Origin: an uncultured Candidatus Peribacteria bacterium
Lineage (GTDB): Bacteria; Patescibacteriota; Gracilibacteria; UBA1369
Assembly (NCBI GenBank): GCA_964624115.1
Contig: CAZUXI010000001.1
Span: 35,548 to 99,547, forward strand
DNA length: 64,000 nucleotides
Direction: 5' to 3'
The position numbers and the translations under genes were made by a program. The notes below the pieces were generated by a model. That model made no database searches. It had not been told where the DNA came from and saw only the letters and a program-made list of their open reading frames with translations. Shown piece after piece: positions 9,145-64,000 of the stretch (the first letter of the stretch is position 1; each line of letters begins with the position of its first letter).

Positions 9145-9154
9145 ACGAGATGTT

Positions 9155-14763: not shown

Positions 14764-17700
14764 CTAGGTATTTTTGAGGAATTTTTCTAATGTTTCGAAG
14801 TGTCCCTGGGCGAAGGTTTCTTCAAAGGGCATATACGCGGGGAGTCTCACTCGGGTGCGGGTGGCTACGGTTCCGTCAGTTTTTTGGACCTGTTCCTGGA
14901 TGGTTACGGCTTTTTTTTGGAGTTCAGCGGCTTCTTTTTGGGATTTTTCTTGTTCGTACCTGGCGTATCTTTCCAGACGCTCCTTAATGCTGAGATATTT
15001 CAGAAGGTTTGGCTGGAGTACCTCAAGGTATTTTTTTCGTGCTTCCTGGATATTATGGCTGAGTTGATCTTCAATTTGGTGTCTGGTTTTCTGGGTGATG
15101 TGGGGAATGTTTTGCGGCTTTCTGATGGCTTCAAAAATCTCTCTGATCCAGGGGGATTCGTCTTTTTCTTCCAGATCGTAGTAAAGCACTCCCAGACGGG
15201 TTTTGGTTTCGAGATCTTGGCCTTCTTCAGCGTCTTGAAACAAAGCCCTTCGTAATGCACTTTCCGCATCACGTTCGTGTCGTTGGTGTACGGTATATAA
15301 TGTTGTTCCTGCATCGGTTGTTGTTGCTCCCAGGTCATAGGAGAGTGGAAGTGTGTAGGCTCTTGAGCGACGGACATATACTTCGGTGGGCAGTGATTGT
15401 TTGGTGTTTAAGTCTTCATAGAGTTTTTTCAGGTCAAAAATACGTTCGTAATATTTTTTCCCTCCGATGGTAACGACACGGAAAAGGGTGACTTCTGCAA
15501 GTTCTGCTGGCGCAGGTTGTGGCAGTTGTTCACCGATGAGCAGGGGCTCAAAAATTTTTTTTATTTTGGCACGGTTGGTTTCGAGTTTTTTTCGTTCCGC
15601 TTCGGCACGTTTTTTTCGAATGAGCTTGTCACGGTCGGTGAGGTCGATGGCCATTTCTCCGACGTTTCTTTCAGAAGTGACCGTTGGGGGTAAATCTGGT
15701 TCTGGATGGGATGATGGTGGTGGGACTGACGGTGGGCTTTGATCAGGCGAAGGAATGATTGCATTCTTGTCCGGACTTGGTGGGGCTGGTGGTTCTGCAG
15801 GTATTAGAACTGGTTTTGCTTTGCGGACAAGGACTTTACATAAAACTTCCAAAGCAAGGAAATGTATTTCTGAAAATAATGGTCCCATGACCCCTTGCAC
15901 GGTGCTTTCGTTTTCTCCGAGCAATTGAGTGGGTATGCCATTTTGATCAAGCAGGCGGATATGCATTTCTCCGTTCGGGTTTATTTGGAGATGTAATGGT
16001 TCGACGTTTGTTCCGGTAAGGGTAACGTAGCCGCTTAATCCGACCTCGGCGTTTTTGACTGATTTGGCTGGTTTTACCTTGGCTTGGGTGTAATATTTGG
16101 TGAGTGCGGAAGTACAGGAGGATAGGTCCAGGATGTTACCAGCTGAGGAAATATGGCTGGATTTCTCATCTTTTAAGGTTTGGATAAGCCCATTCAGGTC
16201 ACGGAGTGGATAGGGGCCATTGAGATCTTTCAGCGTAAAATGCTGAATATTTTCCAATGCCTTTGTGTGAGTAATATCAAGGGCTTTGATGGCTTGAAGT
16301 TCCTCAATACTTAGGCTAAGAAAGCTCATTATATACTCGTCTGTGACGTCAAAATTTTTCCGTGATCGGAGTCCATAAGCAATGAGTTTAATTTTTTTGG
16401 CCGGTTTTAATTTGCTGTTATCCAGAATGTTTTTGAGTACCAGGAGACTGTTCTTTACACCTGCGTTTAATGCTTTTTGTGCGAACTTCTCAAGGAGTTC
16501 TTCTTCTGCCTGACCATCATGAAGGTTGAGGAGTCCGGCAAATACTTCGGCAGCGTTGTACGCGGTCTGATAGTTATTTCCAAAACATTCGGAAACAATT
16601 TCGTTCAAATGACTCGCCATTTTTTGCCAACGTTTGGCTGAAAAAAAGTTAAGAAAAAAGTCGATTCCCGGCTCAGTGAGATCCTCAATGTTGTCATTTA
16701 TCTTTCCATCGGTTTGATACCAGGTCAGAAGTGCTCGAATGGTGTTTGGTTTTTGAGCTATGAGGTCGAGAATTTTTTCTGGACATTGTTCAGCAGCCGG
16801 GAGGCCTTGATTGTAGTTATATCTTTCAACGAGTTCGAGTGGATTTTCAGCTTTTTCAAGGACTCGTTGATAAGCTTCACGTTTTTTGTTGAAGACTCTT
16901 GTTATCTTCTGGAGTGTTTTTGGGTCGGTGGTCGTTTTTTGGTATGCAGCAAATTCTTCATTGATGGGGCGAAAGGTTGTATCAAGCCAATTCCTGTATA
17001 TTTTGTAATCAGCAAAATTTGGATGTTCTACGGCACTTTGAGGGTTTGCCCCTGACTCTAACCAGATGTGTTTCCAGATTCTGGCGATCGACTGGATATG
17101 TCCGGCCGGTATAGCGAGTGACCGGTTTGGTTTGATATCGATCTTTATGCCTCTTTGTTCCAGCATCAAGGCAAAATTTGCCATTTCCTGATAAAGTTTT
17201 GTTAAAAAATCTCTTTGCTTTGAATACTCTTGTATTGCCCGTTCGGATAATTGGGAAGTGTTGAGTTCCAATGGTTTTGCCTCGCGTAAAAAGGTCAGAA
17301 CGTAGATGAGACCTAAGGCTTCTTTTTGCCGCTCATTCTTTTGTTCTTCATCTGATTCATTGGCAAAGTGACTTGTGGCGTAGGTATCAACAATATGGAA
17401 AAGTGCGCTTTTAAATTCAGTTTCTACTACCGATTGAACGATTTTGATTATTTCTGCCTCGTCATGAGTATGCAAAATCTGCGTGGCGATTCTACTATAC
17501 AAATACAGCAATGGTCTCGCGATGCGGTCTGAGAGGCAGGCAGTTTCTACATTATGTTTTTGATGTTTTGCCAGAACACGGTCACTATCGACGGAATTGG
17601 TTTTCATCATGAATTCATCATTTTTGCTTACGCTTTGGACTTTTTTTATTAAGCGACTGATTAATTTGGATATCCGTGGATCACCCAGTTGTCCGACTCG

Positions 17701-22786: not shown

Positions 22787-22946
22787 CGAGGAGGGGAAAC
22801 GAGGTTTCCCCCTCGTAGGCTCCCCCTTCCTATAAAGTCAAAAAATAAAAGGTACTTCGCTTAACTTCGCATTTTACTTTTTAGGGAACCCACAAGACCC
22901 TTAAAAGTAAAATACTACGTGCCGCTTCGTACCTTTTATTTTTTGC
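22773..22946 (+). repeat. Repeat element copy A: 20-codon ORF/hairpin module (MRWINEEGKRGFPLVGSPFL*), then a 16-bp outer stem enclosing a conserved core hairpin
   Basis: It aligns with 54952-55113. Hairpin ggggaaac/gtttcccc lies at 22793-22811. The outer stem is 22840-22855 paired with 22929-22944 (16/16). The core 22858-22925 is nearly identical to copy B. Confidence 0.8.
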
Positions 22947-23188
22947 AGGTTTCATTATTGTTGATTTATATTTGTCATTTTTTTGGTTGATTTTTCGGGA
23001 AAGTGGGCGTTATAGTGCGCGCGTTCTTTAAAAATGCCTTTTGTAGCTTTTGGTTAGCGGAAAGTTTCGGGATAAAGTCTTCTTTTTTTGGGGAAGTTTT
23101 ATGCGAGGTTTTCCGCTGGCCTCAAGTTCTGGGCTATGCCTGTGGCTCTGACAGGTTCAGAGTGTGTTGTGTTCGTGGAGGTGGTTCC

Positions 23189-28589: not shown

Positions 28590-28593
28590 AAAA

Positions 28594-28674
28594 AACGGGA
28601 AGGGGAAACGGGGTTTCCCGATTCGGCTGAAAGGCCTCCTGAACAACTGCCCTCTCGTAGGCCCTTCTTTCCTT
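28594..28674 (+). repeat. Repeat element copy C: short module only, with a 30-nt in-frame insertion
   Basis: aac ggg aag ggg aaa cgg ggt ttc ccg [30 nt] cct ctc gta ggc cct tct ttc reads NGKGKRGFP[IRLKGLLNNC]PLVGPSF. It fills the convergent gap between guaA and the next gene. Confidence 0.65.
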
Positions 28675-29784
28675 TTAGGCCATGGTGTTCATGGTGAGGG
28701 CGGCGATGAGGGGGATGATGAGGTTGTCGTCGAATGTTTTGTCTAAGAAACGGATAGAGAAGATCTCCCAGGCCATGGCAAAGGTGGCACCGAGGAAGGC
28801 CATTTGGAAGGGGACAAAATTAAAAGCGCCTATGGTTGCAATAATGATGGCAAGCACAGTACCTTCCAAGTGCTTTATGGGATTGAGTGGATTTTTGAGT
28901 TTGCCAAAGTAGGTTCCAACCAGCGTTGAGACTGCGTCACCGAGGCCCATAATCATGATGGAGGCGAGGGCGATAGGTTTGGGGAAAAAGATGGTCACCA
29001 TAAATGAACCTATCAGGAGGTAGATTGCTCCCTTTCCAGGAAATTGTGTCAGGTGGTCTTTCCGTTCAAAGGGTCGAAGTAAATGAAGAATGAAAGGGAT
29101 TTTTTGGTATTTGACTGAAAGTGAACACCCAATTCCGATAATTATGAGAATAAAGAGCGAAATGGTGTGCAGAAGGTCAAATTTTATGAGGAGGGCAATA
29201 GACACCGCTGAGAAGGCGTGGGCAATTTGCCTTCGTAGCTCGAGCTTGCTTTTTACATGATGGAGAAACCAGTTGGTGAGCTGATATTTTTCTTCAGCGG
29301 ACAGGATTACTTTGGCAATCACATATCCGATAACACTTCCGGCGAGGAGATCTGAAAGGTAATGAACGCCGAGGTAGATTCGACTCAAGATGATGAGGAA
29401 TGTAAAAAGCATGAGGGGAAGGTGGATCCGTTTTTTGGGGAATATTTTTGGTAAAAAGGCGATGATTGCTGAACAGATGGTCGCGTGCATACTGGGAAAA
29501 GCGTAGCCGGATGCTTGGGTTAAGGCGATATCGCTGAGGTTTTCAGTGTGGTAGGGGCGGGGGATTTGAAAAAAACGTTTGAGAAGGTAACTGATTTCAA
29601 GTGTTATTCCAGCAGACAAAGTGAGGAGGATAAGGATGTTTCCTTTTCGTTTTTTCAGAAGAAAGAGTGTCAGGAGCACAAGAAAAATATAGAGGCCAAT
29701 ATCCGTTAAAAAAAGCATGCTTTGATCAAGCCATGGAGTTCGTAAGGTGGCGATGAATTTTACGATGGTTTGATCGATGTTCAT
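28675..29784 (-). CDS. PAP2 phosphatase domain fused to a polyprenol/dolichol-kinase-like (CTP-transferase-type) membrane domain
   Basis: The N-terminal half has PAP2 motifs (KRFFQIPRP, FPSMHA, SRIYLGVHYLSD). The C-terminal half (GKGAIYLLIG...IMGLGDAVSTLVGTYFGK) resembles dolichol/phytol kinase family proteins as I recall them. Confidence 0.55.
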   Translation of the reverse strand: MNIDQTIVKFIATLRTPWLDQSMLFLTDIGLYIFLVLLTLFLLKKRKGNILILLTLSAGITLEISYLLKRFFQIPRPYHTENLSDIALTQASGYAFPSMHATICSAIIAFLPKIFPKKRIHLPLMLFTFLIILSRIYLGVHYLSDLLAGSVIGYVIAKVILSAEEKYQLTNWFLHHVKSKLELRRQIAHAFSAVSIALLIKFDLLHTISLFILIIIGIGCSLSVKYQKIPFILHLLRPFERKDHLTQFPGKGAIYLLIGSFMVTIFFPKPIALASIMIMGLGDAVSTLVGTYFGKLKNPLNPIKHLEGTVLAIIIATIGAFNFVPFQMAFLGATFAMAWEIFSIRFLDKTFDDNLIIPLIAALTMNTMA

Positions 29785-29799: not shown

Positions 29800-30486
29800 C
29801 TAAAATCTAGTGGCAAAAATAAACCAGAGCGGCTGCAGAAGGAGGAGTATAAAAAGTACCAGAAGGTAGATGTTTTTATTTAAACGCTCTTCTTTTAAGC
29901 GGTTTTGGAATGTTTTCAGTTTCCCTTCAACGATTCCGAGCGCCTCCTGGGCTTTTTCAACCTTGGCTTCTTCGAGTTGTAGGATTTTTTTGTATTCGAG
30001 CAATGGAACGGTTTCATTTTTTTGAATTTCCAGCTGCGCTTCCAGTTGCCCGACTCGATAATTTGCACCCTCTAAGCGCTCCTGTTTTATTTTCAGTTCC
30101 TGTTTGAGTTCTTCGTAAAGTTTTTGATAGATTTTCCCAGAATTTTCTTCGGGTGGAATTATCGACTGGGGTGGGGGTGGCGTGTCGGTCGACATGACAA
30201 CTGAGCTGTCTACCCCTGAGACATCAATCATTTCTTTTACATCAAAGTTATTACCAGTACCAATGTCTACATCAGCGACACTCCTTCGCTGGTAACTTTG
30301 TCTCCCCTGCTGACTCCTCTTTTGACCACTTTGGCCTCTCTTAAAGCTCCTTACCTCATCATCATTGAGCATTACACGCCCGTAGATCTCTTGAACACTG
30401 AGTTTTCCTGATGCAATATACCTGTCTACCGTACGGACAGATACTGAGAGTATTTGGCTTGCCTGCAATCTACTTACCGTATACAT
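29800..30486 (-). CDS. Hypothetical protein with an N-terminal excisionase/MerR-type HTH, a coiled coil and a C-terminal TM anchor
   Basis: The HTH pattern is YTVSRLQASQILSVSVRTVDRYIASGKLS. Heptad-rich QLEAQLEIQKNE follows, with a hydrophobic tail IYLLVLFILLLLQPLWFIF. Confidence 0.5.
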   Translation of the reverse strand: MYTVSRLQASQILSVSVRTVDRYIASGKLSVQEIYGRVMLNDDEVRSFKRGQSGQKRSQQGRQSYQRRSVADVDIGTGNNFDVKEMIDVSGVDSSVVMSTDTPPPPQSIIPPEENSGKIYQKLYEELKQELKIKQERLEGANYRVGQLEAQLEIQKNETVPLLEYKKILQLEEAKVEKAQEALGIVEGKLKTFQNRLKEERLNKNIYLLVLFILLLLQPLWFIFATRF

Positions 30487-54335: not shown

Positions 54336-54479
54336 TTAGCGCCACTTCTTGATGAATTTTACGACGTCGAAGTTTTTGGGGAGTTTGACGTCGGAGAAAG
54401 CTTTTTGGAGGTCGATCATGGCTTGTTTGAGCTCCATGGCGTCTTTCGTCATTTTTTGTTTTTTTCGTGAGTTGGTCAT
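54336..54479 (-). CDS. 47-aa basic ORF translationally coupled to the 3' end of the PIN gene (possible cognate partner)
   Basis: Own translation: MTNSRKKQKMTKDAMELKQAMIDLQKAFSDVKLPKNFDVVKFIKKWR. Its ATG overlaps the PIN TGA (ATGA). It is below the 60-aa cutoff of the ORF track. Confidence 0.4.
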   Translation of the reverse strand: MTNSRKKQKMTKDAMELKQAMIDLQKAFSDVKLPKNFDVVKFIKKWR

Positions 54480-54889
54480 ATGGTTTTTGGATTAAATTGT
54501 TCGTAAGCGGCAAGAAGTTTTTTATCACCAGTTAGAAAAATATCGACATTATATTCTTGAGTGTATGCCAAAATAATCAAATCATGTGTATGTAATTTAA
54601 TCTTCTTGGTATAAAAATCAAATTTTTTGAACCAGAAAATTTCCTTGGAGCAGAATTTTTTTATATTTTTTCGCCTGAAAGTGTATTCGAGTTTTTGTTC
54701 TTTTATTGTATCGAATAACATTCGGTGAAGTACGTTTTTCACTTCCGCATAGATTATTTCTGGCAATAGAATAATTGAATCTTTTTCAATTAGTTTCATT
54801 ATTTTATTTGTGGTTTCACGATCTTTTTCAATACCCAGGGCATAGGAGATCCAGGTGGAGCTGTCGAAGAGGCAGGTTTTTTTGTGCAT
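54476..54889 (-). CDS. PIN-domain (VapC-like) ribonuclease
   Basis: Four acidic positions lie in the expected order: CLFDSS, IIYAEV, THDLIILAY, LTGDKKL. Confidence 0.7.
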   Translation of the reverse strand: MHKKTCLFDSSTWISYALGIEKDRETTNKIMKLIEKDSIILLPEIIYAEVKNVLHRMLFDTIKEQKLEYTFRRKNIKKFCSKEIFWFKKFDFYTKKIKLHTHDLIILAYTQEYNVDIFLTGDKKLLAAYEQFNPKTI

Positions 54890-54951
54890 AGGGGTTGGTG
54901 ATTTGCTTGAGGATAGTGGAGAGAGTTAAAGGAAAGTTAAAAAAGAGATGA

Positions 54952-55113
54952 AATTTCACGAAAGGAAAACGGGGTTTTCCTCTCGTGGGCTCTCCTTTCC
55001 TGTAGAGTCAAAAACCAACTTTTCCTGCGCTTAACTTCGCATTTTTCTTTTTTGGGACCCACAAGACCCTAAAAAGTAAAATACTACGTGCGCTCCGGAA
55101 AAGTTGATTTTTG
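54952..55113 (+). repeat. Repeat element copy B
   Basis: It reads NFTKGKRGFPLVGSPFL* with no start codon. The hairpin is aggaaaac/gttttcct. The outer stem is 55010-55025 paired with 55097-55112 (15/16). The core is nearly identical to copy A. It ends about 25 nt from the terminator of GC cassette 3. Confidence 0.8.
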
Positions 55114-55138
55114 CTGTGATTTTTTTTGGGGGCATTGG

Positions 55139-55176
55139 AAAAGAGCCCTCGACGTCGGATGACGGAGGGCTCTTGG
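55139..55176 (-). terminator. Hairpin terminator of the cassette-3 gene
   Basis: aagagccctc (55141-50) pairs perfectly with gagggctctt (55165-74). On the minus strand it is followed by a short T-run. Confidence 0.5.
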
Positions 55177-55369
55177 GGATGGACCGCAGGGACGCGCCTC
55201 GAGCCGTTGCCTTGGGAGGCTTGGGCGAGAGCGTTGCGATACGCGGGTGAGGCGCGTTTACCTGAAGGTCCATGGTGTGCCCGGGCAGAGTTTCAAATGT
55301 CTCTGCTCGGGCGTGAATCACGGTGAGCTCCCCAGCTCAGCGTGAGTGGCTCGATCGAGTTCTAAACTT

Positions 55370-56224
55370 CTAGAACTCGATCCCGTTCGGGCCAACCTTT
55401 TTCGGGTTGGCGAACGGCCAGCTTGGGGGGTTGAACGCCGGCTGGGAGGAGGCGGAGCCCGAGGAGGCTCCGCCGGGCCACGTGGGCGCCACCACGATGG
55501 TGACGTTGGTGGGGGGCTGGCCAGGCGCCCCGGGGATTGTCGTGGTGGTCGGGGCGGTGGGGATCCAACCTGGGGGGGTGGGGGCGGAGGGGGTCCAGCC
55601 GGGGGGGAGCGGAGGAATGGGCGGGATAGCGCTGGGGAAGCCGGGGGGCGGGTTCGGGGGCTGGGGCACCGGAACCCAGCCAGGGGGGAGAGGGGGCGGC
55701 GGGACCTGAGTGGGAGGGGCGGTCGGAGGGGGCGGGGCGGTCTGGGTTGAGGTCGGAGCGGGAGGTGAGGCGGGGGTGGATGACGTTGCGGTTGGCGGGG
55801 CGGGGTTGCCGTTGGACGAGCAACCCTTGTACAAAAGGCCTGCGCCGATGATAGCCGCGAGAACTCCGCCAGTGATGGCCCACGTTTGCCACTTCTTGTA
55901 CCAAGGGGTGGCGGCCGGAGCCGGTACGGGGACGATCGGAGGGACGAACCCGGGGGCGCCGGGGGCAGCCCACGCGGCCAACATGGCGCCGTTGTTGAAG
56001 GTGGCCAGAGGGCCAGCGAGCGCGGTTGCCATGGGGCTGCCAGCCGGAGCGGCGGCGACCATGGCGGCGTGGAGGTTGTTGAGTTGCGTCTGATCGGGGT
56101 TACCACCAACCCCGAAGAGGGTATCGAACTGTGTCCCGGCGGCGGTGGTATCCGCCGGGTTGAGCACGCCCACGCCATTCGGCGGGGCGGCTACGCTCCA
56201 GATGAACTGCTGTCGAGTTGCCAT
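55370..56224 (-). CDS. Orphan single-pass membrane protein with a PPGW-repeat polyproline C-terminal region, carried on GC-rich cassette 3
   Basis: AAGGAG lies 8 nt before ATG 56224 (MATRQQFIW...). The TM is WAITGGVLAAIIGAGLLY, followed by LPPGWVP...LPPGWTP...PPGWIP. Codons are G/C-ending. The alternative frames are Arg/Pro junk. Confidence 0.6.
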   Translation of the reverse strand: MATRQQFIWSVAAPPNGVGVLNPADTTAAGTQFDTLFGVGGNPDQTQLNNLHAAMVAAAPAGSPMATALAGPLATFNNGAMLAAWAAPGAPGFVPPIVPVPAPAATPWYKKWQTWAITGGVLAAIIGAGLLYKGCSSNGNPAPPTATSSTPASPPAPTSTQTAPPPPTAPPTQVPPPPLPPGWVPVPQPPNPPPGFPSAIPPIPPLPPGWTPSAPTPPGWIPTAPTTTTIPGAPGQPPTNVTIVVAPTWPGGASSGSASSQPAFNPPSWPFANPKKVGPNGIEF

Positions 56225-56522
56225 GGTGGCAACTCCTTTCTGGCGCACACAGGCGCCGGTGAAATCTCCCCCGCCTTGGCTCGGGAGAGCAAACGGGGGA
56301 GGGTTAAGGTTTCAGGTAAACGTGCCAAGGAGGAAAAATCTTTTTAAGCAAGATCTCTTTTCCTTGGCGCGTTTCGGTTGGATTGTCAAAGGGCGTCGAT
56401 ATCTTTTCTTTATGGTTGGGGAGGAATTTTCGTTATCTCTTCAAAACAGAAGAGTAGATTTATCATGAATTTGGTATTTTGTCAACTGTTCAGTGGGTAG
56501 TCAATTGGTTCGGGTGGCTTGT

Positions 56523-59500
56523 TTAGGCTGCTAAGGTGCTCATTTCATTTTGAATGGCTTGGAGGTTTCTTGTTACGATCTGTTGGTAATTCTGTGTAAA
56601 ATTGGAAGGTCCCCATGGGGTGCTACCGCTACCACCGCTCGCTCCGGTTTGGTTCTGCCAAGCTCTTTGCCATAAATTGACGATTCCATTGAGGGCTTGG
56701 GCTACTGTTTTTTGTTCGGTCGGATCGGTGATTTTTTTTGGGTCGTGGTTCATGAAGAAACTGAGGTCGTCGAGGCGGAGTTCTGAATTTTCTTGAGGGT
56801 TTGCGAGGATTGCGGTGAGGGTGTTGTAGGTTTGGGTGAGTTGTGGGTATTTATCCTGAATTGTGATGCCGTCTTTGGCTTCCTGGATTTGGGCTGGATT
56901 GGCCTGTATTTGATTGAGAAGATGAACGGTGTAACGGGCATCGATGCCGATTTTGGCTCGATTGGTGGCTTCTTGGGCGAGTTCGGTTTGGAGTACTTTT
57001 GCTTCCGCTAAGAGTTGGCGGAAGGTTTTGTGGGAATTGTAGAAAGCGAGCTCTTCTGAACTTGGATCGAAGTTGTTTTTTGCCATGGTGAGGCCGAGTT
57101 TGGTGAGTTCGAGCGCTGGGCTGCTTGCTGGTGTTGCTTCAAGGATTGCCAGAGAGTTCCTGGCAAGGGTGAGGTGGTCAAGGCGGCGGCTTTTTTTTGC
57201 CTGCTCCATGGTTTGGTAAAGATTTGTTGCGGCGACGATTCGCTGGTTGCGGAGATCGAATGCAGTGAGGGCGGCGGCTTCAAAGGTGGTGTGTTTTCCG
57301 TTTTGTTCGTTGATTTCTGTGGTGATCAGGGATGGGAGTTTTATGAGACTCATGATGGTTTCGCAGGCTTGTTGATCTACGGCCATAAGATCGTTAAGGA
57401 TTTGATTTGCTTCCTGCTCATATTTTTGGGTATCTTCCAACATTAGACCGGTATTTCTCCAATGGTCGGCGGTTTGGGCACTGAGGCAGAGCAACCAGGC
57501 ACGGCGGATTTTTTGTTTTTCCGGGTGGGACGCAAAAGCTGGAATGAGGTCGTCGGGGAAAATGAACCCTGATGATTTGCTTAATGGCTCAATGATATCG
57601 GTGAAGGTATCGATGGGTTCGAGGTTCAAATCTTTGGTTGAGACCTCATTTACTTGTTTTACGATGTGTCCAACTGAACCTTTCCAATGTTTGAGAAGCT
57701 GAGCAACTCCCTTGCTGAGCGGTGCATTGGGCGACCAGAGACTGATGGTGCGGAGCTTGCCGGTGACACTCGCCGTGAGCCAGCGTTTGATACCTAAGTT
57801 TTCGTGTTTTTCAAGGGCATCACGGAGTCTTTTTTCTTCTATTTCCAACGGTGTGGGACCAGCGGGTTGTGGTGGGATGGATTGGTTTACCGGTGCTACT
57901 TGAGGTGATTGGGGAGCAGGGTTTGGGGCTGGTTGAAGTGTTGGAGTTGGTTGAGGGGCGGATGGAGCGGGAGAAGAGGGGACTCGGGCTGGTTGGGGTG
58001 CTGGAGCTGGGGTTGGAGTTTGTGCAGATGCGACTGGAGCAGGGGGAGTGACGGGAGGGAGTGATTGCAGGACAGGGGGAGTTGAAGGAGCTGGTGGGGT
58101 AGGCTGTGTTGAAATAGCTGGGGGATGGGCTGGAGTTGGCGGCACTGGAGGCAGTGGAGGTGTGGCAGAAGTGGCTGCAGGATGTGCAGAGGGAGCCAGT
58201 TGGAATGGTTGGTTTGGTGGGGCAAATTGAACTGTGGTTGTTGTGCCTGAGGACGCTCCGTCATTTGGCGGAGGTGGCATGGTAAGTGGACCTGGCATTG
58301 GACCGTTTGAGGGTACTGTTGGAGCTGGGGCGTTTATTTGGGCTGGTGCTGCTGATGTTGGTCCGGGGATGACTGAGGGTGATGGAAGAAAAGGTGCAGG
58401 ATGATTTGTTTTTGGGAAACCGTGTTCGAGGTATTCGGTTAAACGGCCGAGGTTTTTTGCGATTTTATTGAACGCTTCAAGACGAAGGTAGTTCGCAGGC
58501 TCTGAAAAGCCACCGTTCGCTTTTATCTCACGTTCGAGGAGTTCGGATTTGGCTTTCAGTATGACAACGAGTGCTTCGGTGAGTTTTATTTGCTCAGCTA
58601 CTGATGGCACACTTATTTGGAGTGGATCGTAGGTAGAGTTTTCCAGGATGCTGAGGTCGGTCAGATCGTCTTTTCCTTCTAAAATGGCAATGTAGGTTTG
58701 ATCAATGAGTGGGTATTTTTGATAGAGTTTTGCTCCTTGATCTATTCCTCCCTGAAGCTGTTTTGAACTGGTTCCAAACTGGCTAAAGTTGAATGGTCGA
58801 TCAAACGAGCCCTCAGAAAAGGGTTGATCTGCACATATTTCGTGGATAAGGTCGTTGGTTTGGACGGGGGCAAAACCTTGATGGGCAAGATTTGTAGCTT
58901 CTGCACCGTATTTCATTATGAAGAGGTAGAGCTGATTAAGCATTTCTTCACGTGACATAAATTTCCATTCTTCCAAACTCTTAAAAGGGAACGGTTCGGG
59001 ATTTTCCTGGGCTTTCCCGGCACAACTGAGATGCTGTGCAATATTGAGCGCTGCTTCAAAAGCTTTTGGTGAGGTTTCAAGAAGTTCGAGATAGATGTTG
59101 ACTACTCTTTGAAAAGTTGCGAGGGGGTTGGTTTGGAGGTGTTGCTTATTGGCTTCTGTCAATTGTTGATAGAGGTTGTTGGCATTGATGATATTTTCCA
59201 GAATGGTGTTATTTACTTTTGACTCAACATCCGGTCTTTTGTGAAATCTTTCACGTTCCTGGGTTGCATCTGGAAGGGTTCCTTGTGCTTGCTGCATTAA
59301 AGCATCAAGTTTTTCTTTTTTAGCCTGCGTTTTATCTTCGATTTCTGCCTCACAAAGATTATCTATTTCGAGCCGACTATTGTTTTTGTAGTCGCCGCGT
59401 GTTTCTCTGAGAACGTATTCACATCTTATGAGCTGTGTTTCCTGAAGTATTGCCGTCTGAAGCGCGGCAATTTCCGGATGTTGTTTTTTCATCTCTTCAT

Positions 59501-60182
59501 CTGCAATCGTTTGGGCAATGGCATCGATGGTTTGTTCAAAATATCTTGGCAAACGGGCACTGAGGTCGATTTCGTTAAGGTAGGCCTGTGCTCTTTCTTG
59601 GTCGGTACTATTGGATAAAAGTGAGGAATGGAGTGCGTTGAGGGCAGCGGTAATTTGCTGAAGGGTTTGATCAAAGACCTGATTTCCAGCTTCTGATATT
59701 TCTGCACCGTAGAGACTGTAAAAATAAAAGAGTTCGTTTTCGGCGTGGGTAAGTTTTTGAAAGAGTCCTTGTCGTTCCTGAACTGACAAAGTGGGAGGAT
59801 TTCCGCTTTCTACTTCAGCCACTACCAGGGCGGCTTTTTGGAGATGAGGTGCTAAAAATTCTACCCCAAAGCTGTTGAGGTATTTTTGTTCTGCTTCTGG
59901 TGTGCCATTTTTTTGATGGATTTTTTTCAGTTCTGCGTTCGTTTTTTTTGCTTTCTCCAACCATTTTCTCATTTTTTCGTGGTACTTGTTGGAAAGTTTT
60001 TTTGAGTATTTACGATGATGAACGTAATTCGCAAAAGCTTCCGCGCGATTATGAAACGCAAGTTCGAGCTGCTTTTTCAACTCAATTATTTCCGTTACTT
60101 CAGGTGATTTTGTTGAATCAGGACCGGTTGCTTTGTCTTGATCATCTGGTCCCGTTGGTCCAGGAGGGGGGGTTGATGGCAT
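56523..60182 (-). CDS. Giant helical ORFan (1219 aa) with a central polyproline region of about 170 aa
   Basis: Uninterrupted ORF with an ATG start and native C/A-ending codon usage. It has no TM or signal peptide. The central part reads PAPFLPSPSVIPGP...PPLPPVPPTPAHPP...QSIPPQPAGPTP. Confidence 0.6.
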   Translation of the reverse strand: MPSTPPPGPTGPDDQDKATGPDSTKSPEVTEIIELKKQLELAFHNRAEAFANYVHHRKYSKKLSNKYHEKMRKWLEKAKKTNAELKKIHQKNGTPEAEQKYLNSFGVEFLAPHLQKAALVVAEVESGNPPTLSVQERQGLFQKLTHAENELFYFYSLYGAEISEAGNQVFDQTLQQITAALNALHSSLLSNSTDQERAQAYLNEIDLSARLPRYFEQTIDAIAQTIADEEMKKQHPEIAALQTAILQETQLIRCEYVLRETRGDYKNNSRLEIDNLCEAEIEDKTQAKKEKLDALMQQAQGTLPDATQERERFHKRPDVESKVNNTILENIINANNLYQQLTEANKQHLQTNPLATFQRVVNIYLELLETSPKAFEAALNIAQHLSCAGKAQENPEPFPFKSLEEWKFMSREEMLNQLYLFIMKYGAEATNLAHQGFAPVQTNDLIHEICADQPFSEGSFDRPFNFSQFGTSSKQLQGGIDQGAKLYQKYPLIDQTYIAILEGKDDLTDLSILENSTYDPLQISVPSVAEQIKLTEALVVILKAKSELLEREIKANGGFSEPANYLRLEAFNKIAKNLGRLTEYLEHGFPKTNHPAPFLPSPSVIPGPTSAAPAQINAPAPTVPSNGPMPGPLTMPPPPNDGASSGTTTTVQFAPPNQPFQLAPSAHPAATSATPPLPPVPPTPAHPPAISTQPTPPAPSTPPVLQSLPPVTPPAPVASAQTPTPAPAPQPARVPSSPAPSAPQPTPTLQPAPNPAPQSPQVAPVNQSIPPQPAGPTPLEIEEKRLRDALEKHENLGIKRWLTASVTGKLRTISLWSPNAPLSKGVAQLLKHWKGSVGHIVKQVNEVSTKDLNLEPIDTFTDIIEPLSKSSGFIFPDDLIPAFASHPEKQKIRRAWLLCLSAQTADHWRNTGLMLEDTQKYEQEANQILNDLMAVDQQACETIMSLIKLPSLITTEINEQNGKHTTFEAAALTAFDLRNQRIVAATNLYQTMEQAKKSRRLDHLTLARNSLAILEATPASSPALELTKLGLTMAKNNFDPSSEELAFYNSHKTFRQLLAEAKVLQTELAQEATNRAKIGIDARYTVHLLNQIQANPAQIQEAKDGITIQDKYPQLTQTYNTLTAILANPQENSELRLDDLSFFMNHDPKKITDPTEQKTVAQALNGIVNLWQRAWQNQTGASGGSGSTPWGPSNFTQNYQQIVTRNLQAIQNEMSTLAA

Positions 60183-60314
60183 GACGATAAGATTTATTGG
60201 AAATATTCTTGCTTCCTAAGGGCGAAATCATAACATTTATTTATTTTTTGTCAATAAATTGAGTTGTGTGGTATAGTAGGGCCGGAAAATTTAAAATTTT
60301 AAAACAAAATCGAA

Positions 60315-62309
60315 ATGAAAGGTATTTTTTTCCGGCGTCGGGACAAGAAAGATGAGAATCAATCAGCTCAAAACCAACCTGTTTCAGACCAACAAGTTTC
60401 GCCAACAAGTCGTCAAAATTCAGCTCCCAGTTCAGCTCCTCAAGGGGCAGCCACACCGCCAGGTGCCACTTTGGCGGCTAGCGGCACCGTTTTGGCCGGA
60501 GCAGCTCCTGGGACAGCATCGAGCGCTTTTCGCGGTGGTCCTTCCCGAGGTGGAAAAGCACCTTTTAAACCTCGGTTCAATAAACCAATTCACAAACCTC
60601 AAGGTCAAAAAGGTGGATTTTTTGGTTTCAAACCTGGTTTTTCTGGTAAATTACGGATTATTGCCTTGGGAGGTCTCGATGAAGTGGGGAAAAACTGTAT
60701 GGTTTTGGAATATGGGCGCGATATTATCCTGATTGATTTAGGTTATGAGTTTCCTGACGATCATTTATTGGGGGTTGATTATGTAATTCCTGATATTTCT
60801 TACTTAGCTGACAAGCTGGATCGAATTCGAGGTATTGTTTTTACTCATGGTCATTTGGATCATATTGGTGCGGTTTCTCACTTAATGCAGAAACTCAATT
60901 TCCCTGTGCTTTATGGAACAAAACTCACGATGGCACTTGTGGAAAAGCAATTAACCGAATTTGGTCTTACAACTCGAACAACGATTAAGACGGTGACTGA
61001 AAACGATATTCTGCAGTTGGGGGCGTTCCAGGTGAGTTTCTTTTCCGTGAACCATAGTATTCCTGATGCGGTTGGTGTGGTGGTAAAAACTCCCGCCGGA
61101 AATATTGTTCACACGGGCGATTTTAAGTTTGATTTTACTCCTTCAGGTAGTCAAAAACCTGCAGATTTTGCACGTATTGCGAGCCTGAGCAAAGAGAACA
61201 TTGCGGCATTGTTTATTGATTCAACCAACGCGTTAAAAGCCGGGTACACCATCACTGAAAAGAAAATTGGGGATTCGTTGGAATCTATTATTCGCAATAA
61301 CGAAGGCCGCATTTTGATTGCTTCGTTTTCTTCTCAAATTGGTCGTATGCAGCAGATTTTTGATGCGGCAAAAAAATATGGAAGAACCGTGTATTTAAGT
61401 GGACGCAGTTTGGTTGATAATGTGGCTTTGTCGATTAAGCTTGGTTATATCAAGGTCCCTCAAGGTCTTGTTCATGATATTCGACGAACTAAAAAACTTC
61501 CGGAACAGAAAGTCATTATTCTCACGACTGGTAGTCAGGGAGAAGAGGTCTCAGCTTTGAGTCGAATCTCTTTAGAAGATCATCCGGTCGTGAAGATTAA
61601 AAAGGGTGATACGGTGGTGCTTTCTTCTTCACCAATTCCAGGAAATGAAAAAGCGGTTACCGCGGTTACGAATAATCTTTGCCGTCTGGGTGCACGCATT
61701 ATCAATAACCAAATTATGGATGTGCATACTTCTGGTCATGCACAACAGGAAGATTTAAAACTGATGATGAGTCTGGTAAAAGCGAAATATGTGGTTCCGG
61801 TTCATGGTGAGTACTACATGCGTTTTGGGAATAAAGAGGTGGCGATGAATATTGGCTATGATGATAAACACACCGTTCTGATTGAAAATGGAGATGTTTT
61901 GGAAATTGAAAATGGTGAAGTTTCATACAAAGGTGAAAAGGTTTCGACCAATTATATTCTTGTGGATGGCTTGGGATATGGGGATGTTGGTGCGCAGGTT
62001 ATTTTGGATCGACAAACACTGGCTGAGAATGGAATGCTCATTGTAACAATTCCGGTGGATACCCATAGTCGTAAACTTAAGGGTGATATTGATGTGATTT
62101 CTCGTGGATTTATTTATATGAATGAGACCGCAGAGATTACCCAACATGTGGTTGAAGTGGCTTCCAAGGCCTATAAAAATATTTTGGAAAAACGTCCGGA
62201 TGCAAGTCGTGCGGATATTAAAAAGTATCTTCGGGATCAGATTGAACGATTTGTTATTCAGAAGATTGATCGGCAACCTTTGGTGTTACCGATTATTGTT
62301 GAGAAATAA
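60315..62309 (+). CDS. rnj: Ribonuclease J with a disordered N-terminal extension of about 110 aa
   Basis: MBL motif THGHLDHIG, a beta-CASP domain, HTSGHAQQEDL, and a C-terminal domain. The N-terminus is rich in Q/S/P/G/K. Confidence 0.85.
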   Translation: MKGIFFRRRDKKDENQSAQNQPVSDQQVSPTSRQNSAPSSAPQGAATPPGATLAASGTVLAGAAPGTASSAFRGGPSRGGKAPFKPRFNKPIHKPQGQKGGFFGFKPGFSGKLRIIALGGLDEVGKNCMVLEYGRDIILIDLGYEFPDDHLLGVDYVIPDISYLADKLDRIRGIVFTHGHLDHIGAVSHLMQKLNFPVLYGTKLTMALVEKQLTEFGLTTRTTIKTVTENDILQLGAFQVSFFSVNHSIPDAVGVVVKTPAGNIVHTGDFKFDFTPSGSQKPADFARIASLSKENIAALFIDSTNALKAGYTITEKKIGDSLESIIRNNEGRILIASFSSQIGRMQQIFDAAKKYGRTVYLSGRSLVDNVALSIKLGYIKVPQGLVHDIRRTKKLPEQKVIILTTGSQGEEVSALSRISLEDHPVVKIKKGDTVVLSSSPIPGNEKAVTAVTNNLCRLGARIINNQIMDVHTSGHAQQEDLKLMMSLVKAKYVVPVHGEYYMRFGNKEVAMNIGYDDKHTVLIENGDVLEIENGEVSYKGEKVSTNYILVDGLGYGDVGAQVILDRQTLAENGMLIVTIPVDTHSRKLKGDIDVISRGFIYMNETAEITQHVVEVASKAYKNILEKRPDASRADIKKYLRDQIERFVIQKIDRQPLVLPIIVEK

Positions 62310-62358
62310 ATTCTAAGTACTCAACTTCAAATTCTCAATTAAATTTTAATTCTTTTTT
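62308..62358 (+). promoter_or_regulatory. G-poor AATTCT leader between rnj and the flippase gene
   Basis: (T)AAATTCTAAGTACTCAACTTCAAATTCTCAATTAAATTTTAATTCTTTTTT-GTG. It starts on the rnj stop codon. Confidence 0.45.
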
Positions 62359-63894
62359 GTGTCCACGGTAGCGCGTAAAATTTTGTTTAATACGGTTGCT
62401 CAGGTGATTGGTCGTGGGTTTACGGCGGTTTTTAGCGTAATCATCGTTAAGATTATTACGAACTATTTGGGTGTTGCGGGTTATGGCGATTACACGGCGA
62501 TTTACGAATTTATTTCATTTTTTGCAATTGCTTCTGACTTGGGACTTTATACGATTGCAGTGCGGGAAATGGCGAAAAATCCTGTAAAAACCCAAATGAT
62601 TGTTGGGAATGTACTGACGGTTCGAACCCTGGTTTCGGCGTTTACGATGTTTTTGGCGGTCGTCCTTTCTTTCTTTTATGCGAGTCCTGAAACCACTATC
62701 GTTTTTCCTTTAGCTGTCGCAATTACCGGCTTATCAACAATTTTTGCGCTTCAAACGGTGGCAGTTTCGACTGTTCTGCAAGTTAATTTGAAGATGCAAT
62801 ATAACTCGCTCGGATCGGTGTTTGGAAAAATATTGACCCTGGTCTCGATTGTTTCAGTTGTTTTTTTGATCCATCCAAGTACGCCAGAACAGGGATTTTA
62901 CCTCCTCTTGGTTGCGGGGATTGTGGGAAACTTGGGTATGCTTTTAATGACCTATGGTTTTGCTCGAAAATATACCAATATTCGTTTTCGGATTGATTGG
63001 GATTTCTTGAAAAATGTGGTTTGGAAAGCACTTCCTTACGGCTTGGCACTGGTGCTCAATGTGCTTTATTTCCGGATTGGCTCGATGCTGCTTTATCGGA
63101 TTGCTGGGCCGGAGCAGGCCGGTATTTATGGTGTACCAATGCGGATGCTTGAGGCCGTAGCAATTGTGCCGCAGTATTTTATGAATTCGGTTTTGCCCAT
63201 TCTGACCAGAACTCTGGAAGAGAAAAATAAAAGGTATCAGCAGATTATTCAGTATTCGTTTGATTTTTTGGTCATGACGGGGGTTTCTATTGCGGTTGGT
63301 ACTGCGGTACTCGCCTATCCAATTGTGGCGATTGTGAGTAGTCCAGAGTTTTTGAGCCGCGTGAATGAAGGTTTTTTTGGTTCTGATATGTCTTTGCAGA
63401 TTTTGATTTTCGCACTCGCGTTTTCGTTTATTAACACTTTGTTTGGGTTCACTTTGGTGGCCATCAATAAGCAGTCGAAGTTGTTAATTATTAATGGAAG
63501 CGGCGCGCTGATTGCTATTGTTCTCAATTTACTTTTGATTCCGCAATTTGGTTCACGGGGATCAGCGATGAGTTCAATTGTTGTTGAGTTTTTTATTGCA
63601 CTTGCCGCTTATTTGTATGCCAAAAAATATCTGGATTTTAAATTGAATTTTGTTCCGGCGTTGAAAATTTTGTTTTCTGGAGCAGTGATGGGAGCTGTCC
63701 TTTTAGCTCTACGCGATCCCCTCTTTCATTTTATGGGACTAGAGAATAAGAGTTTGATTTTATTGATTCCATTGGGGGCTTCAGTATTTATTGGATTACT
63801 GGTATTTACCAAAGTTATTACCAAAGATATGGTGCAGACGATTTTGAAGAGGAATAAGGTGGTTACTGAAGAGATTGAGCCACCGGTGGTATAA
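62359..63894 (+). CDS. Wzx/MOP-superfamily oligosaccharide flippase
   Basis: About 14 TM helices, with an N-terminal pattern (LFNTVAQVIGRGFTAVFSVIIVKIITNYLGVAGYGDY) typical of polysaccharide-biosynthesis flippases. GTG start. Confidence 0.7.
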   Translation: MSTVARKILFNTVAQVIGRGFTAVFSVIIVKIITNYLGVAGYGDYTAIYEFISFFAIASDLGLYTIAVREMAKNPVKTQMIVGNVLTVRTLVSAFTMFLAVVLSFFYASPETTIVFPLAVAITGLSTIFALQTVAVSTVLQVNLKMQYNSLGSVFGKILTLVSIVSVVFLIHPSTPEQGFYLLLVAGIVGNLGMLLMTYGFARKYTNIRFRIDWDFLKNVVWKALPYGLALVLNVLYFRIGSMLLYRIAGPEQAGIYGVPMRMLEAVAIVPQYFMNSVLPILTRTLEEKNKRYQQIIQYSFDFLVMTGVSIAVGTAVLAYPIVAIVSSPEFLSRVNEGFFGSDMSLQILIFALAFSFINTLFGFTLVAINKQSKLLIINGSGALIAIVLNLLLIPQFGSRGSAMSSIVVEFFIALAAYLYAKKYLDFKLNFVPALKILFSGAVMGAVLLALRDPLFHFMGLENKSLILLIPLGASVFIGLLVFTKVITKDMVQTILKRNKVVTEEIEPPVV

Positions 63895-63933
63895 ATTCTA
63901 AGCTTTCCAAGCATCAAACTTTCAAATAAATTC
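63893..63933 (+). repeat. Second copy of the 41-nt AAATTCTAAG...AAATTC leader; it starts on the flippase stop codon
   Basis: It is identical over 41 nt to 50984-51024 and presumably precedes the next gene, which starts beyond the readable region. Confidence 0.6.
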
Positions 63934-64000
63934 AAAATATTAAATCCTAATGTTTAAAGTTGGGGCAGTTTTTTATTTTTGTTTTTTCTAAAATCGAGGT

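What the first reader, a model, noticed from the sequence alone, without database searches (positions are those of the whole stretch)
55126..56300. GC-rich cassette 3: single-pass membrane protein with PPGW polyproline repeats
This is again a sharply GC-rich block with ORFs open in nearly every frame. The coherent one (56224-55370, minus strand) has an AAGGAG SD, G/C-ending codons, an Ala/Gly-rich N-terminal domain, one TM helix (WAITGGVLAAIIGAGLLY) and a Pro-rich region of about 150 aa with three PPGW(V/T/I)P repeats. A perfect 10-bp hairpin terminator lies at 55141-55174.

The gene lies immediately downstream of, and co-oriented with, the native 1219-aa giant ORFan, and it is flanked on the other side by element copy B. 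All three cassettes therefore encode Pro-rich orphans with complete bacterial expression signals.
Basis: seen in the sequence. Interest (0 to 1): 0.7.

Follow-up and report, generated by a model that had tools for sequence, protein, structure and literature searches.

The report
Foreign GC-rich single-gene cassette, repeat-flanked
A 1.2-kb stretch of 65-79% GC DNA in a 43% GC genome of a tiny symbiotic-type (CPR) bacterium carries one gene for a proline-rich membrane protein with no relatives anywhere. Its hairpins and flanking inverted repeats recur around similar islands in this and a related genome, which suggests an undescribed way of capturing foreign genes.

Summary
Positions ~55126-56335 are 65-79% GC against 43.8% for the window. 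The minus-strand ORF 56224..55370 (284 aa) has AAGGAG 8 nt before its ATG, GC3 of 0.81 and one TM helix. It has 66 prolines, three PPGW(V/T/I)P motifs and a hairpin terminator at 55141-55174. It is the only frame that scores as coding. Searches of 5.8 billion clustered and 1.84 billion representative proteins, Pfam, PHROGs, PADLOC, PDB, phages and plasmids returned only the protein itself.

New findings:
- The island is bracketed by a 16-nt inverted repeat (55251-55266 / 56311-56326), never reached in shuffles.
- Its proximal arm overlaps a strong hairpin just after the giant ORF. Its distal arm opens a ~90-nt imperfect palindrome 3' of the gene.
- The same anatomy, with different sequence, surrounds a GC-rich ORFan after the giant ORF of a relative (RNase J 72% identical). 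A comparable repeat flanks island 1.
- Islands 1 and 3 share a 27-nt promoter-like motif found nowhere else in the window.
- The cassettes of both genomes share codon usage.

Best reading: a real, horizontally acquired, expressed envelope-protein cassette. It was probably integrated at a hairpin site by site-specific recombination. That mechanism is inferred; no recombinase was seen.

The parts
56459..56485 (-). Promoter-like 27-mer TTGACAAAATACCAAATTCATGATAAA (TTGACA, then an extended -10 TGATAAAT) in native AT-rich DNA, 38 nt after the giant ORF stop
   Evidence: The pattern TTGACAAAATnnCAAnTTnATGATAAA occurs exactly twice in the window, here and at 9587-9613 upstream of island 1. Zero matches are expected in shuffles, and there are none in related loci. 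Local alignment score 39 against shuffles 23.7 +/- 3.5. Function is inferred.
56318..56374 (-). Hairpin H1: 25-nt arms with an AT-rich interior, at the proximal edge of the island. No U-tract follows.
   Evidence: I1. RNA fold -28.5 kcal/mol, z = -6.0, 0/200 shuffles. Positional counterpart in the relative at L025 16464-16519, z = -9.1.
56311..56326 (-). Proximal arm of the flanking inverted repeat (GGCACGTTTACCTGAA). Its first 9 nt are the end of H1's 3' arm.
   Evidence: (I5), 15/16 complementary to 55251-55266. 0/300 and 0/200 shuffles of the edge zones reach 16 nt.
56225..56310 (-). GC-rich 5' untranslated region with small GC hairpins and the RBS AAGGAG (56238-56233)
   Evidence: Sequence; GC 0.59. 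The translation-initiation stretch CAGAAAGGAGTTGCCACCATGGCAAC resembles CAGAAAGGGGTGCCACATGGCCAC of the L025 cassette (read by eye).
55370..56224 (-). Coding sequence of 284 aa: Ala/Gly/Pro-rich N-terminal region, one TM helix, Pro-rich stalk, short C-terminal tail
   Evidence: Called as a protein in an NCBI record from a 363,948-bp contig.
55829..55888 (-). Transmembrane helix (aa 113-132, WAITGGVLAAIIGAGLLY, preceded by KK)
   Evidence: Kyte-Doolittle 19-aa window maximum of 1.64 at aa 114. AF2 places a helix at 107-132, at low confidence.
55520..55807 (-). Pro-rich region (aa 140-235, 43% Pro) with PPGWVP (55670-55687), PPGWTP (55589-55606), PPGWIP (55559-55576)
   Evidence: direct repeats in the DNA (D2, D5, D6).
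55353..55382 (-). Perfect 12-bp hairpin that encloses the TAG stop codon
   Evidence: I7; first of five stem-loops.
55251..55266 (-). Distal arm of the flanking inverted repeat (TTCAGGTAAACGCGCC). Its last 9 nt (AAACGCGCC) repeat the first 9 nt of H1 exactly.
   Evidence: AACGCGCC occurs only here and at 56366-56373 in the window.
55180..55272 (-). H3: ~90-nt imperfect palindrome with a GC-rich interior. Three helical segments: GGACC/GGTCC, CAGG/CCTG, ACGCGCCTC/GAGGCGCGT.
   Evidence: Fold -45.8 kcal/mol, z = -5.8. Counterpart at L025 17397-17465, z = -4.5.
55141..55174 (-). Terminator-like hairpin (10 bp perfect, about 14 bp in the fold) followed by UUUUCC
   Evidence: I11.
55126..55385 (-). 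The whole 3' untranslated region: five consecutive stem-loops
   Evidence: MFE -127.1 kcal/mol against shuffles -81.3 +/- 4.8, z = -9.6.
54955..55128 (+). Element copy B: native repeated intergenic element (two hairpin modules) abutting the island. Not considered part of the cassette.
   Evidence: 77% identical to 22783-22963. Five compensatory pairs between the two copies. Partial third copy at 28589-28695 after the guaA stop. No Rfam family.

Best explanation
Island 3 is real foreign DNA. It is a single-gene cassette of high-GC origin sitting in an intergenic gap of a ~43% GC, Peregrinibacteria/Gracilibacteria-like CPR genome.

Shown:
- The composition and codon usage are foreign.
- One frame is coding.
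- The gene has its own Shine-Dalgarno sequence and a heavily structured 3' UTR that ends in a terminator-like hairpin.
- The product has no detectable relative.

Inferred, expression and product:
- Transcription starts at the native-type promoter 56485-56459, or reads through from the giant ORF.
- The product is a bitopic envelope protein. Its ~110-aa N-terminal part stays in the cytoplasm (no signal peptide; KK precedes the helix). A rigid ~100-150-aa polyproline stalk with Trp-containing PPGW motifs projects through the wall, as in spacer or anchor proteins of the cell surface.

Inferred, how it got there:
- The cassette lies between a chromosomal hairpin H1 (AT-rich interior) and its own palindrome H3 (GC-rich interior).
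- The two share the same 9-nt stem base (AAACGCGCC / its complement).
- The 7 nt just inside H1 (ACCTGAA) are the reverse complement of the 7 nt just before H3 (TTCAGGT).
- This is the product expected from recombination between a palindromic site on a circular cassette and a hairpin site in the chromosome, with crossover at the 3' foot of the stem. It has the geometry of an integron attC x attI event, but without the integron consensus.
- A different cassette occupies the equivalent site in a relative, which points to a conserved capture site rather than one ancient insertion.
For: Composition and coding.

Orphan status.

Expression signals.

Flanking inverted repeat:
- 16 nt at 15/16 for island 3.
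- 17 nt at 16/17 for island 1 (9721-9737 / 12061-12077).
- 16 nt at 15/16 for L025 (16511-16526 / 17406-17421).
- Each reached by 0/300 and 0/200 shuffles.

H1 and H3 are strong structures in both genomes. H1 has an AT-rich interior and H3 a GC-rich one.

Stem-base motifs are similar between species:
- AAACGCGCC against AAGCGAACC (H1, 6/9).
- AAACGCGCC against AAGCGCACC (H3, 7/9).
- The 16-nt arms are 9/16 identical, and every difference is compensated in the partner arm.

Related GC-rich ORFan islands:
- L025, after the giant ORF next to RNase J, GC3 0.84.
- L110/L111, between MurL and Mur ligase, which are adjacent in L025 and L027. The sequence is identical in two runs.
- The L026 contig ends as the sequence turns GC-rich right after its giant ORF.

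Shared codon usage of cassettes across genomes: RSCU r = 0.65-0.89.

HGT and genomic islands are documented in Patescibacteria (PMC12455944).
Against: - No integrase, invertase or transposase domain was found in any large ORF of the 64-kb window. Only an excisionase-type HTH protein lies 25 kb away.
- Only three of five GC-rich islands have the inverted repeat. Island 2 and L110 do not.
- Island 1 has a weak H1 (z = -0.8) and no clear H3.
- The ~60-nt tail beyond H3 is still GC-rich, which the simple one-crossover model does not predict.
- No donor or empty site was found, and no independent assembly of this very island could be retrieved.
- Translation and protein topology are untested. AF2 gave pLDDT 49.9.
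Confidence: 0.55

Rival explanations
1. Invertible segment (phase variation). The 16-nt inverted repeats are recombination sites for an invertase that flips the promoter-less gene relative to the fixed upstream promoter, switching a surface protein on and off.
For: - Significant inverted repeats bracket the gene while the promoter-like motif lies outside them.
- The product looks like a surface protein.
- Relative to element copies A and B, cassettes 2 and 3 have opposite orientations.
Against: - No invertase in the window.
- The repeat sequences of islands 1 and 3 in the same genome differ, whereas one invertase normally needs a shared motif.
- Inversion explains neither the foreign GC content nor the H1/H3 direct-repeat geometry.
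Confidence: 0.12
2. RNA-level function. The inverted-repeat arms pair in the transcript (5' leader with 3' UTR) to form a processing or stabilising stem around the mRNA, as in rRNA precursor stems. The hairpins protect the message from RNase J and from 3' exonucleases.
For: - Geometry is conserved while sequence is not, with compensated differences between window and L025 arms.
- The UTRs are exceptionally structured, z = -9.6, -3.8 and -5.3.
Against: - In L025 the local hairpins H1 and H3 are each perfectly paired, whereas the long-range pairing carries the mismatch. Local stems therefore appear to be what is maintained.
- The 25-bp H1 would out-compete a 16-bp contact made over 1 kb.
- This does not explain the foreign composition.
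Confidence: 0.13
3. Plain illegitimate acquisition of foreign DNA with no dedicated mechanism. The hairpins are ordinary terminators and the inverted repeats are incidental or arose secondarily.
For: - Two of five islands lack the repeats.
- About 7 inverted-repeat pairs of at least 16 nt occur per 64 kb when any spacing of 200-5000 nt is allowed.
- No recombinase was seen.
Against: - Three independent edge-zone tests at 0/200-0/300 shuffles.
- The same detailed anatomy appears in two genomes.
- The promoter motif is shared by islands 1 and 3.
Confidence: 0.12
4. Assembly chimera: high-GC DNA from another organism was spliced into the contig.
For: - The source is a metagenome-type assembly.
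- There is a T8G5 homopolymer at the left junction.
- Exact-protein look-ups found no independent contig with this gene.
Against: - The insert is internal, with native sequence on both sides.
- Structured, significant inverted repeats bridge the two junctions.
- The native-type promoter is correctly placed and the gene is complete, with RBS and terminator.
- Analogous islands exist in other assemblies, one identical in two runs.
Confidence: 0.04
5. Native gene or non-coding DNA whose GC richness reflects only Pro/Ala/Gly codons or local biased gene conversion.
For: - The protein is 23% Pro and 15% Ala.
- RNase J N-terminal extensions in relatives are GC-rich low-complexity segments.
Against: - GC3 is 0.81 against 0.30 in the native Pro-rich segment next door.
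- The UTRs are GC-rich too.
- Codon usage is anticorrelated with native genes.
Confidence: 0.04

Closest known systems
Integron gene cassettes (attC hairpin sites, attI platform with Pc promoter)
   Same: - One promoter-less ORF with its own RBS, mostly ORFans, with composition unlike the host.
- An imperfect palindrome of about 60-90 nt lies 3' of the ORF.
- The first bases of the cassette are the reverse complement of the start of that palindrome.
- A promoter sits in the fixed platform upstream.
- A different cassette occupies the same site in a relative.
   Different: - No IntI gene in the window.
- No RYYYAAC / GTTRRRY core sites.
- Single cassettes at scattered loci, not an array.
- The upstream site is itself a long hairpin.
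- The sites of islands 1 and 3 differ in sequence.
Genomic islets / horizontally acquired ORFan genes (amelioration framework); genomic islands reported in Patescibacteria (PMC12455944)
   Same: Sharp compositional discontinuity, deviant codon usage, no homologues, intergenic position beside toxin-antitoxin genes.
   Different: - Very small (1.2 kb, one gene).
- No tRNA, integrase or IS at the borders.
- Recurrent hairpin and inverted-repeat border anatomy.
- Codon usage shared among cassettes of different genomes.
Acinetobacter pdif modules and invertons (segments bracketed by inversely oriented recombinase sites)
   Same: A gene-sized module bracketed by short inverted repeats.
   Different: - The repeats are 16-17 nt, not 28-bp XerC/D sites.
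- They differ between modules.
- No Xer or invertase gene was seen.
- No evidence of both orientations.
TonB-like and other bitopic envelope proteins with polyproline spacers
   Same: N-terminal anchor helix followed by a long Pro-rich rigid spacer.
   Different: No TonB C-terminal domain or any Pfam domain. There is a ~110-aa segment before the helix. This is resemblance only.

Membership tests
Integron gene cassette | Integron integrase (IntI tyrosine recombinase) next to the cassette site | tested here: not met
   Pfam scans of all large ORFs of the window found no Phage_integrase or other recombinase domain. The rest of the genome was not available.
Integron gene cassette | attC with R'' RYYYAAC and R' GTTRRRY core sites | tested here: not met
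   The corresponding positions read TTCAGGT / ACCTGAA in the window, TAGAGAC / GTCTCTA in L025 and GAAGTAT / ATACTTC in island 1.
Integron gene cassette | Imperfect palindrome of 57-141 nt 3' of a promoter-less ORF, whose 5' end is complementary to the first bases of the cassette | tested here: met
   H3 at 55180-55272 (z = -5.8) and at L025 17397-17465 (z = -4.5). The x/x' 7-mers are complementary.
Integron gene cassette | Array of several cassettes | tested here: not met
   Single cassettes lie at 10 kb, 23 kb and 55 kb, separated by housekeeping genes.
Horizontally acquired genomic islet | Base composition and codon usage deviating sharply from the host genome | tested here: met
   65-79% against 43.8% GC. 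GC3 0.81 against 0.34-0.45. RSCU r = -0.15 to -0.27 with native plus-strand genes.
Horizontally acquired genomic islet | Absent from the same locus in relatives, or donor identified | tested here: inconclusive
   The nearest available relatives are at most 73% identical in RNase J. L025 has a different GC-rich gene at the analogous place, and L028 has none. No donor was found.
Inverton (invertible DNA segment) | Flanking inverted repeats | tested here: met
   15/16 over 16 nt; 0/300 shuffles.
Inverton (invertible DNA segment) | Both orientations present in a population; invertase gene | not testable with these tools
   No read data. No invertase in the window.
TIR transposon / MITE | Target-site duplication and several copies with the same terminal repeats; transposase for autonomous copies | tested here: not met
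   The flanks TCCTCCTT and TCACCCGC are not duplicated. The repeats of islands 1 and 3 differ. No transposase.
Group II intron / known structured RNA | Match to an Rfam covariance model | tested here: not met
   Only chance-level miRNA-type hairpin hits, far below gathering scores, for 54700-56600.
TonB / anti-sigma bitopic proteins | Family-specific domain (TonB_C, zinc-binding anti-sigma domain) | tested here: not met
   No Pfam family at E <= 0.01. No PDB sequence match at E <= 1.

The most novel reading that the evidence does not exclude
This CPR lineage has a previously undescribed gene-capture system. Fixed chromosomal platforms consist of a native promoter plus a long hairpin. The hairpin carries an AARCGNNCC stem base in island 3 and L025; island 1's is different (CGGTTGTG) and weak. 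Downstream of these platforms, single promoter-less high-GC ORFan genes for envelope proteins are integrated and exchanged. Exchange occurs by recombination between folded palindromic sites. The geometry is integron-like, but there is no IntI, no attC consensus and no array, and the cassettes are drawn from a shared high-GC cassette pool.
Probability: 0.2. Interest if true: 0.8.

Novelty: new variant of a known kind. Interest (0 to 1): 0.55.

Why it matters
CPR bacteria have tiny genomes and depend on hosts. How they renew their surface proteins is poorly understood.

A site-specific way of plugging in single foreign genes for membrane or surface proteins would be a new route of genome innovation in these organisms. 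The supporting observations are a conserved platform, recurrence in related genomes, and products with no relatives among ~15 billion proteins. Such a route would also point to a hidden high-GC gene pool, for example a host or an unsampled mobile element.

Even on the conservative reading, the case is unusually clean. It is an unameliorated one-gene transfer with intact expression signals. The border anatomy gives a concrete search pattern for finding more.

Tried and rejected
- **Core 18-mer of element A/B.** A scan of genome contigs and viral contigs gave only chance hits.
- **Exact-protein look-ups** for the cassette protein (both starts), the PIN protein, the giant ORF and MurB found nothing. 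Presence or absence of the island in independent assemblies of the same organism could not be checked. Only the RNase J contigs L022-L024 were found, and they stop at 58049.
- **Homology searches:**
  - Word-index search with the whole protein returned only itself.
  - Exhaustive phmmer with aa 1-140 returned itself plus one Ala-rich chance hit.
  - Cassette 1, aa 99-646, returned nothing.
  - Viral loci, blastn against phages and plasmids, PDB, and Pfam, PHROGs and PADLOC all returned nothing.
- **AlphaFold2 without an alignment** gave pLDDT 49.9 and pTM 0.24. It was not used for fold search.
- **Giant ORFs.** L025 and L026 are distant homologues. The window's giant is not detectably related to them (BLASTP, and hhalign probability 0.2%). 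The 'giant ORF + cassette' pairing is therefore positional only.
- **Similarity right of element copies A and B**, seen by eye, was not significant.
- **Rfam** found no family for the island, its UTRs, element B or the island 1 leader.
- **Considered and rejected:**
  - Group IIC intron: no Rfam hit and no reverse transcriptase.
  - Retron: no reverse transcriptase.
  - IS200/IS605-type element: no TnpA, and it does not explain the 16-nt inverted repeat.
  - Alternative genetic code: long ORFs under table 11.
Full report
**Context**

The window is a cellular genome of 43.8% GC with scattered tRNAs and housekeeping genes: dnaB, lysS, guaA, murA, murB, argS and RNase J. It also has a T4SS-type pilin and toxin-antitoxin genes. 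RNase J places it among Peregrinibacteria/Gracilibacteria-like CPR bacteria. The nearest sequenced relatives are only 64-73% identical. Long ORFs under table 11 argue for the standard genetic code. The cassette protein and the giant ORF are on record from one NCBI contig of 363,948 bp. Logan contigs from three SRA runs match window 58049-63945 at 99.4-100%, so the organism has been assembled independently. Those contigs stop short of the island.

**The observation**

GC rises from 0.42 to 0.69 within 100 nt at ~55126-55150, peaks at 0.79 and falls back by ~56335. Several frames are open, as expected in GC-rich DNA. Only 56224..55370 (-) is coding:
- GC3 is 0.807, with a constant third-position phase.
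- A codon model trained on other GC-rich cassettes gives +49 for this frame and negative values for the other five.

AAGGAG sits 8 nt before the ATG. The protein has:
- 66 Pro in 284 aa.
- One hydrophobic helix at aa 113/114-132.
- A 43% Pro region over aa 140-235.
- PPGWVP, PPGWTP and PPGWIP motifs.

The 10-bp perfect hairpin at 55141-55174 is real. It extends to about 14 bp and is followed by UUUUCC.

The GC richness is not an amino-acid effect. The native Pro-rich part of the adjacent giant ORF has GC3 of 0.30, and the island's untranslated flanks are 59-62% GC.

**Orphan status**

The only hit anywhere was the protein itself. The searches were:
- 5.8 billion clustered proteins.
- An exhaustive phmmer of aa 1-140 against 1.84 billion representatives.
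- Pfam, PHROGs, PADLOC and PDB.
- Phage and plasmid DNA.
- IMG/VR.

Cassette 1 is equally orphan. AF2 without an alignment was uninformative.

**Border anatomy**

Read in the direction of the gene, the order is as follows.
1. The giant ORF stops at 56523.
2. A promoter-like 27-mer lies at 56485-56459.
3. Hairpin H1 (56374-56318) has 25-nt arms, an AT-rich interior and z = -6.0.
4. The last 9 nt of H1 plus the next 7 nt (GGCACGTTT+ACCTGAA, 56326-56311) are 15/16 complementary to TTCAGGT+AAACGCGCC at 55266-55251, which lies 104 nt after the stop codon.
5. That distal arm opens H3 (55272-55180), a ~90-nt imperfect palindrome with a GC-rich interior and z = -5.8.
6. A terminator hairpin follows.
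7. Element copy B follows the terminator.

The 9-mer AAACGCGCC at the 5' foot of H1 is repeated exactly at the 5' foot of H3. AACGCGCC occurs nowhere else in the window. The whole 260-nt 3' UTR folds into five stem-loops (z = -9.6).

With edge zones defined by one rule, no shuffle reaches the observed repeat length for island 3. The same holds for island 1 (17 nt, 16/17, 9721-9737 / 12061-12077) and for the island in relative L025. Island 2 and the island in L110 have no such repeat. Genome-wide, inverted repeats of at least 16 nt at any spacing of 200-5000 nt are not rare, at about 7 per 64 kb. The edge-zone test is therefore the relevant one.

**The relative**

L025 comes from GCA_964389195.1, with RNase J 72% identical and 43.3% GC. 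RNase J is followed by a 1373-aa ORFan and then a 1-kb island of up to 81% GC. Its plus-strand ORF (GC3 0.84) begins MATLSRE... and ends in a TM helix. It shares no similarity with the window protein.

The anatomy is the same, with different sequence:
- H1 at 16464-16519 (z = -9.1).
- Arm GGTTCGCTT+GTCTCTA at 16511-16526.
- Arm TAGAGAC+AAGCGCACC at 17406-17421, 15/16 complementary.
- H3 at 17397-17465 (z = -4.5), followed by GTCTCGG.
- A terminator-like hairpin.

Stem-base motifs are similar between species: AAACGCGCC against AAGCGAACC and AAGCGCACC. The arms are 9/16 identical, and every difference is compensated in the partner arm. In L025, H1 and H3 are each perfectly paired while the long-range pair carries the mismatch. 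This favours local hairpins as the maintained structures. The ribosome-binding and start regions are also alike (CAGAAAGGAGTTGCCACCATGGCAAC against CAGAAAGGGGTGCCACATGGCCAC; read by eye).

A giant ORFan after RNase J recurs in L026 and L028. The L026 contig ends as the sequence turns GC-rich. The giants of L025 and L026 are distant homologues. The window's giant is not detectably related to them.

**A class of islands**

L110 comes from another relative. It has a 1.6-kb island of up to 77% GC between MurL and Mur ligase, which are adjacent in L025 and L027. The island encodes a lipoprotein-like ORFan. The part present in a second run is 100% identical.

Cassettes 1 and 3 and the L025 cassette share codon usage (RSCU r = 0.65-0.89; C3 ~0.5, G3 ~0.3). 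Their usage is anticorrelated with native plus-strand genes.

Islands 1 and 3 are each preceded by the same 27-nt promoter-like motif, which is present nowhere else in the window or in related loci.

**Element copy B**

The element (54955-55128) is 77% identical to 22783-22963. It has two hairpin modules with five compensatory pairs. A covariance model finds a partial third copy right after the guaA stop, just as copy A follows the dnaB stop. It therefore looks like a native gene-end intergenic repeat, not part of the cassette. It matches no Rfam family.

**Interpretation**

Shown: a real, compositionally foreign, coding, orphan one-gene cassette with its own RBS and a structured terminator region. 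It belongs to a class of such cassettes in this lineage.

Inferred: it is expressed from the native-type promoter as a bitopic envelope protein with a polyproline stalk.

Inferred with less confidence: it was integrated by recombination between a palindromic site on a circular cassette (now H3) and a chromosomal hairpin (H1), with crossover at the 3' foot of the stem. Four observations fit this:
- The shared stem bases.
- The 7-nt complement just inside H1.
- The AT-rich interior of H1 against the GC-rich interior of H3.
- A different cassette at the equivalent site of a relative.

The geometry is that of integron attC x attI recombination. Membership in the integron family fails: no IntI in the window, no R-box consensus and no array.

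Weak points:
- No recombinase in 64 kb.
- Two of five islands lack the repeat.
- Island 1 has a weak H1 and no H3.
- A GC-rich tail lies beyond H3.
- No empty site or donor was found.

Rivals are an invertible segment, an RNA 5'-3' stem, incidental transfer, a chimera and a native gene. They are weighed in their own section. The last two are largely excluded by GC3, by the UTR composition and by recurrence in other assemblies.

**Novelty**

Genomic islands and HGT are known in Patescibacteria (PMC12455944). I found no description of single-gene high-GC ORFan cassettes with this border anatomy. That search is limited and is not proof of absence.

Noticed in passing
window 22783-22963, 54955-55128, partial 28589-28695: Repeated intergenic element of ~175 nt at 77% identity. 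Module 1 is GGGGAAACGrGGTTTyCC...CTCGTrGGC and sits directly after the dnaB and guaA stop codons. Module 2 is a ~105-nt long hairpin whose outer stem differs between copies but stays complementary (5 compensatory pairs). It matches no Rfam family. It may be a gene-end or terminator element, or a small RNA.
   Followed up: partly
window 9587-9613 (+) and 56459-56485 (-): A 27-nt promoter-like motif, TTGACAAAATnnCAAnTTnATGATAAA, occurs only upstream of GC-rich islands 1 and 3. The similarity does not extend beyond the motif.
   Followed up: yes
window 9721-9737 / 12061-12077 and 9738-9996: Island 1 (646-aa multi-pass membrane ORFan, GC3 0.88) is bracketed by a 17-nt inverted repeat at 16/17. It has a 260-nt leader with four hairpins and no Rfam match.
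   Followed up: partly
L025 16464-17530 (GCA_964389195.1, CAYMDR010000002.1): GC-rich island (up to 81% GC) after a 1373-aa ORFan next to RNase J. It has the same hairpin and inverted-repeat anatomy as island 3 but an unrelated tail-anchored ORFan. The gene caller took the antisense frame (16583..17380 -), although GC3 favours 16625..17383 +.
   Followed up: yes
L110 5800-7700; L111 1-1460 (Logan SRR26389801, SRR26389763): A 1.6-kb island of 62-77% GC is inserted between MurL and Mur ligase in a 42% GC relative. It encodes a lipoprotein-like ORFan (lipobox AVGC) preceded by a 26-bp hairpin. It is identical in two runs and has no flanking inverted repeat.
   Followed up: partly
window 7371-8651 (-): murA has GC3 of 0.67 with 61% C-ending codons, far from other native genes. 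This could be strong codon selection or an older transfer.
   Followed up: no
whole window: There is strong strand asymmetry. Cumulative GC skew rises throughout. Plus-strand genes have G/T-rich third positions (C3 ~0.11) and minus-strand genes C/A-rich ones (G3 ~0.11). The window therefore lies on one replichore, with the plus strand leading.
   Followed up: no
L026 10141-11040; L029 3221-3820; L030 3901-4420: RNase J of relatives carries GC-rich, low-complexity N-terminal extensions (up to 71-72% GC). Their GC is roughly equal at all three codon positions. This is a different phenomenon from the cassettes.
   Followed up: partly
window 8797-9442 and 54476-54889: Toxin-antitoxin genes sit next to the islands. 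An antitoxin/toxin-type ORF pair (8797-9144 and 9095-9442; Phd/RelE-like by eye, not scanned against any family library) lies before island 1. A PIN-domain toxin with no obvious antitoxin ORF lies after island 3.
   Followed up: no
window 29800-30486 (-): A 228-aa protein has an N-terminal excisionase-type HTH_17 domain (PHROG 'excisionase and transcriptional regulator'). It is the only recombination-associated signature in the window.
   Followed up: no
window 55121-55133: A T8G5 homopolymer junction lies exactly where element B ends and the GC-rich island begins.
   Followed up: no
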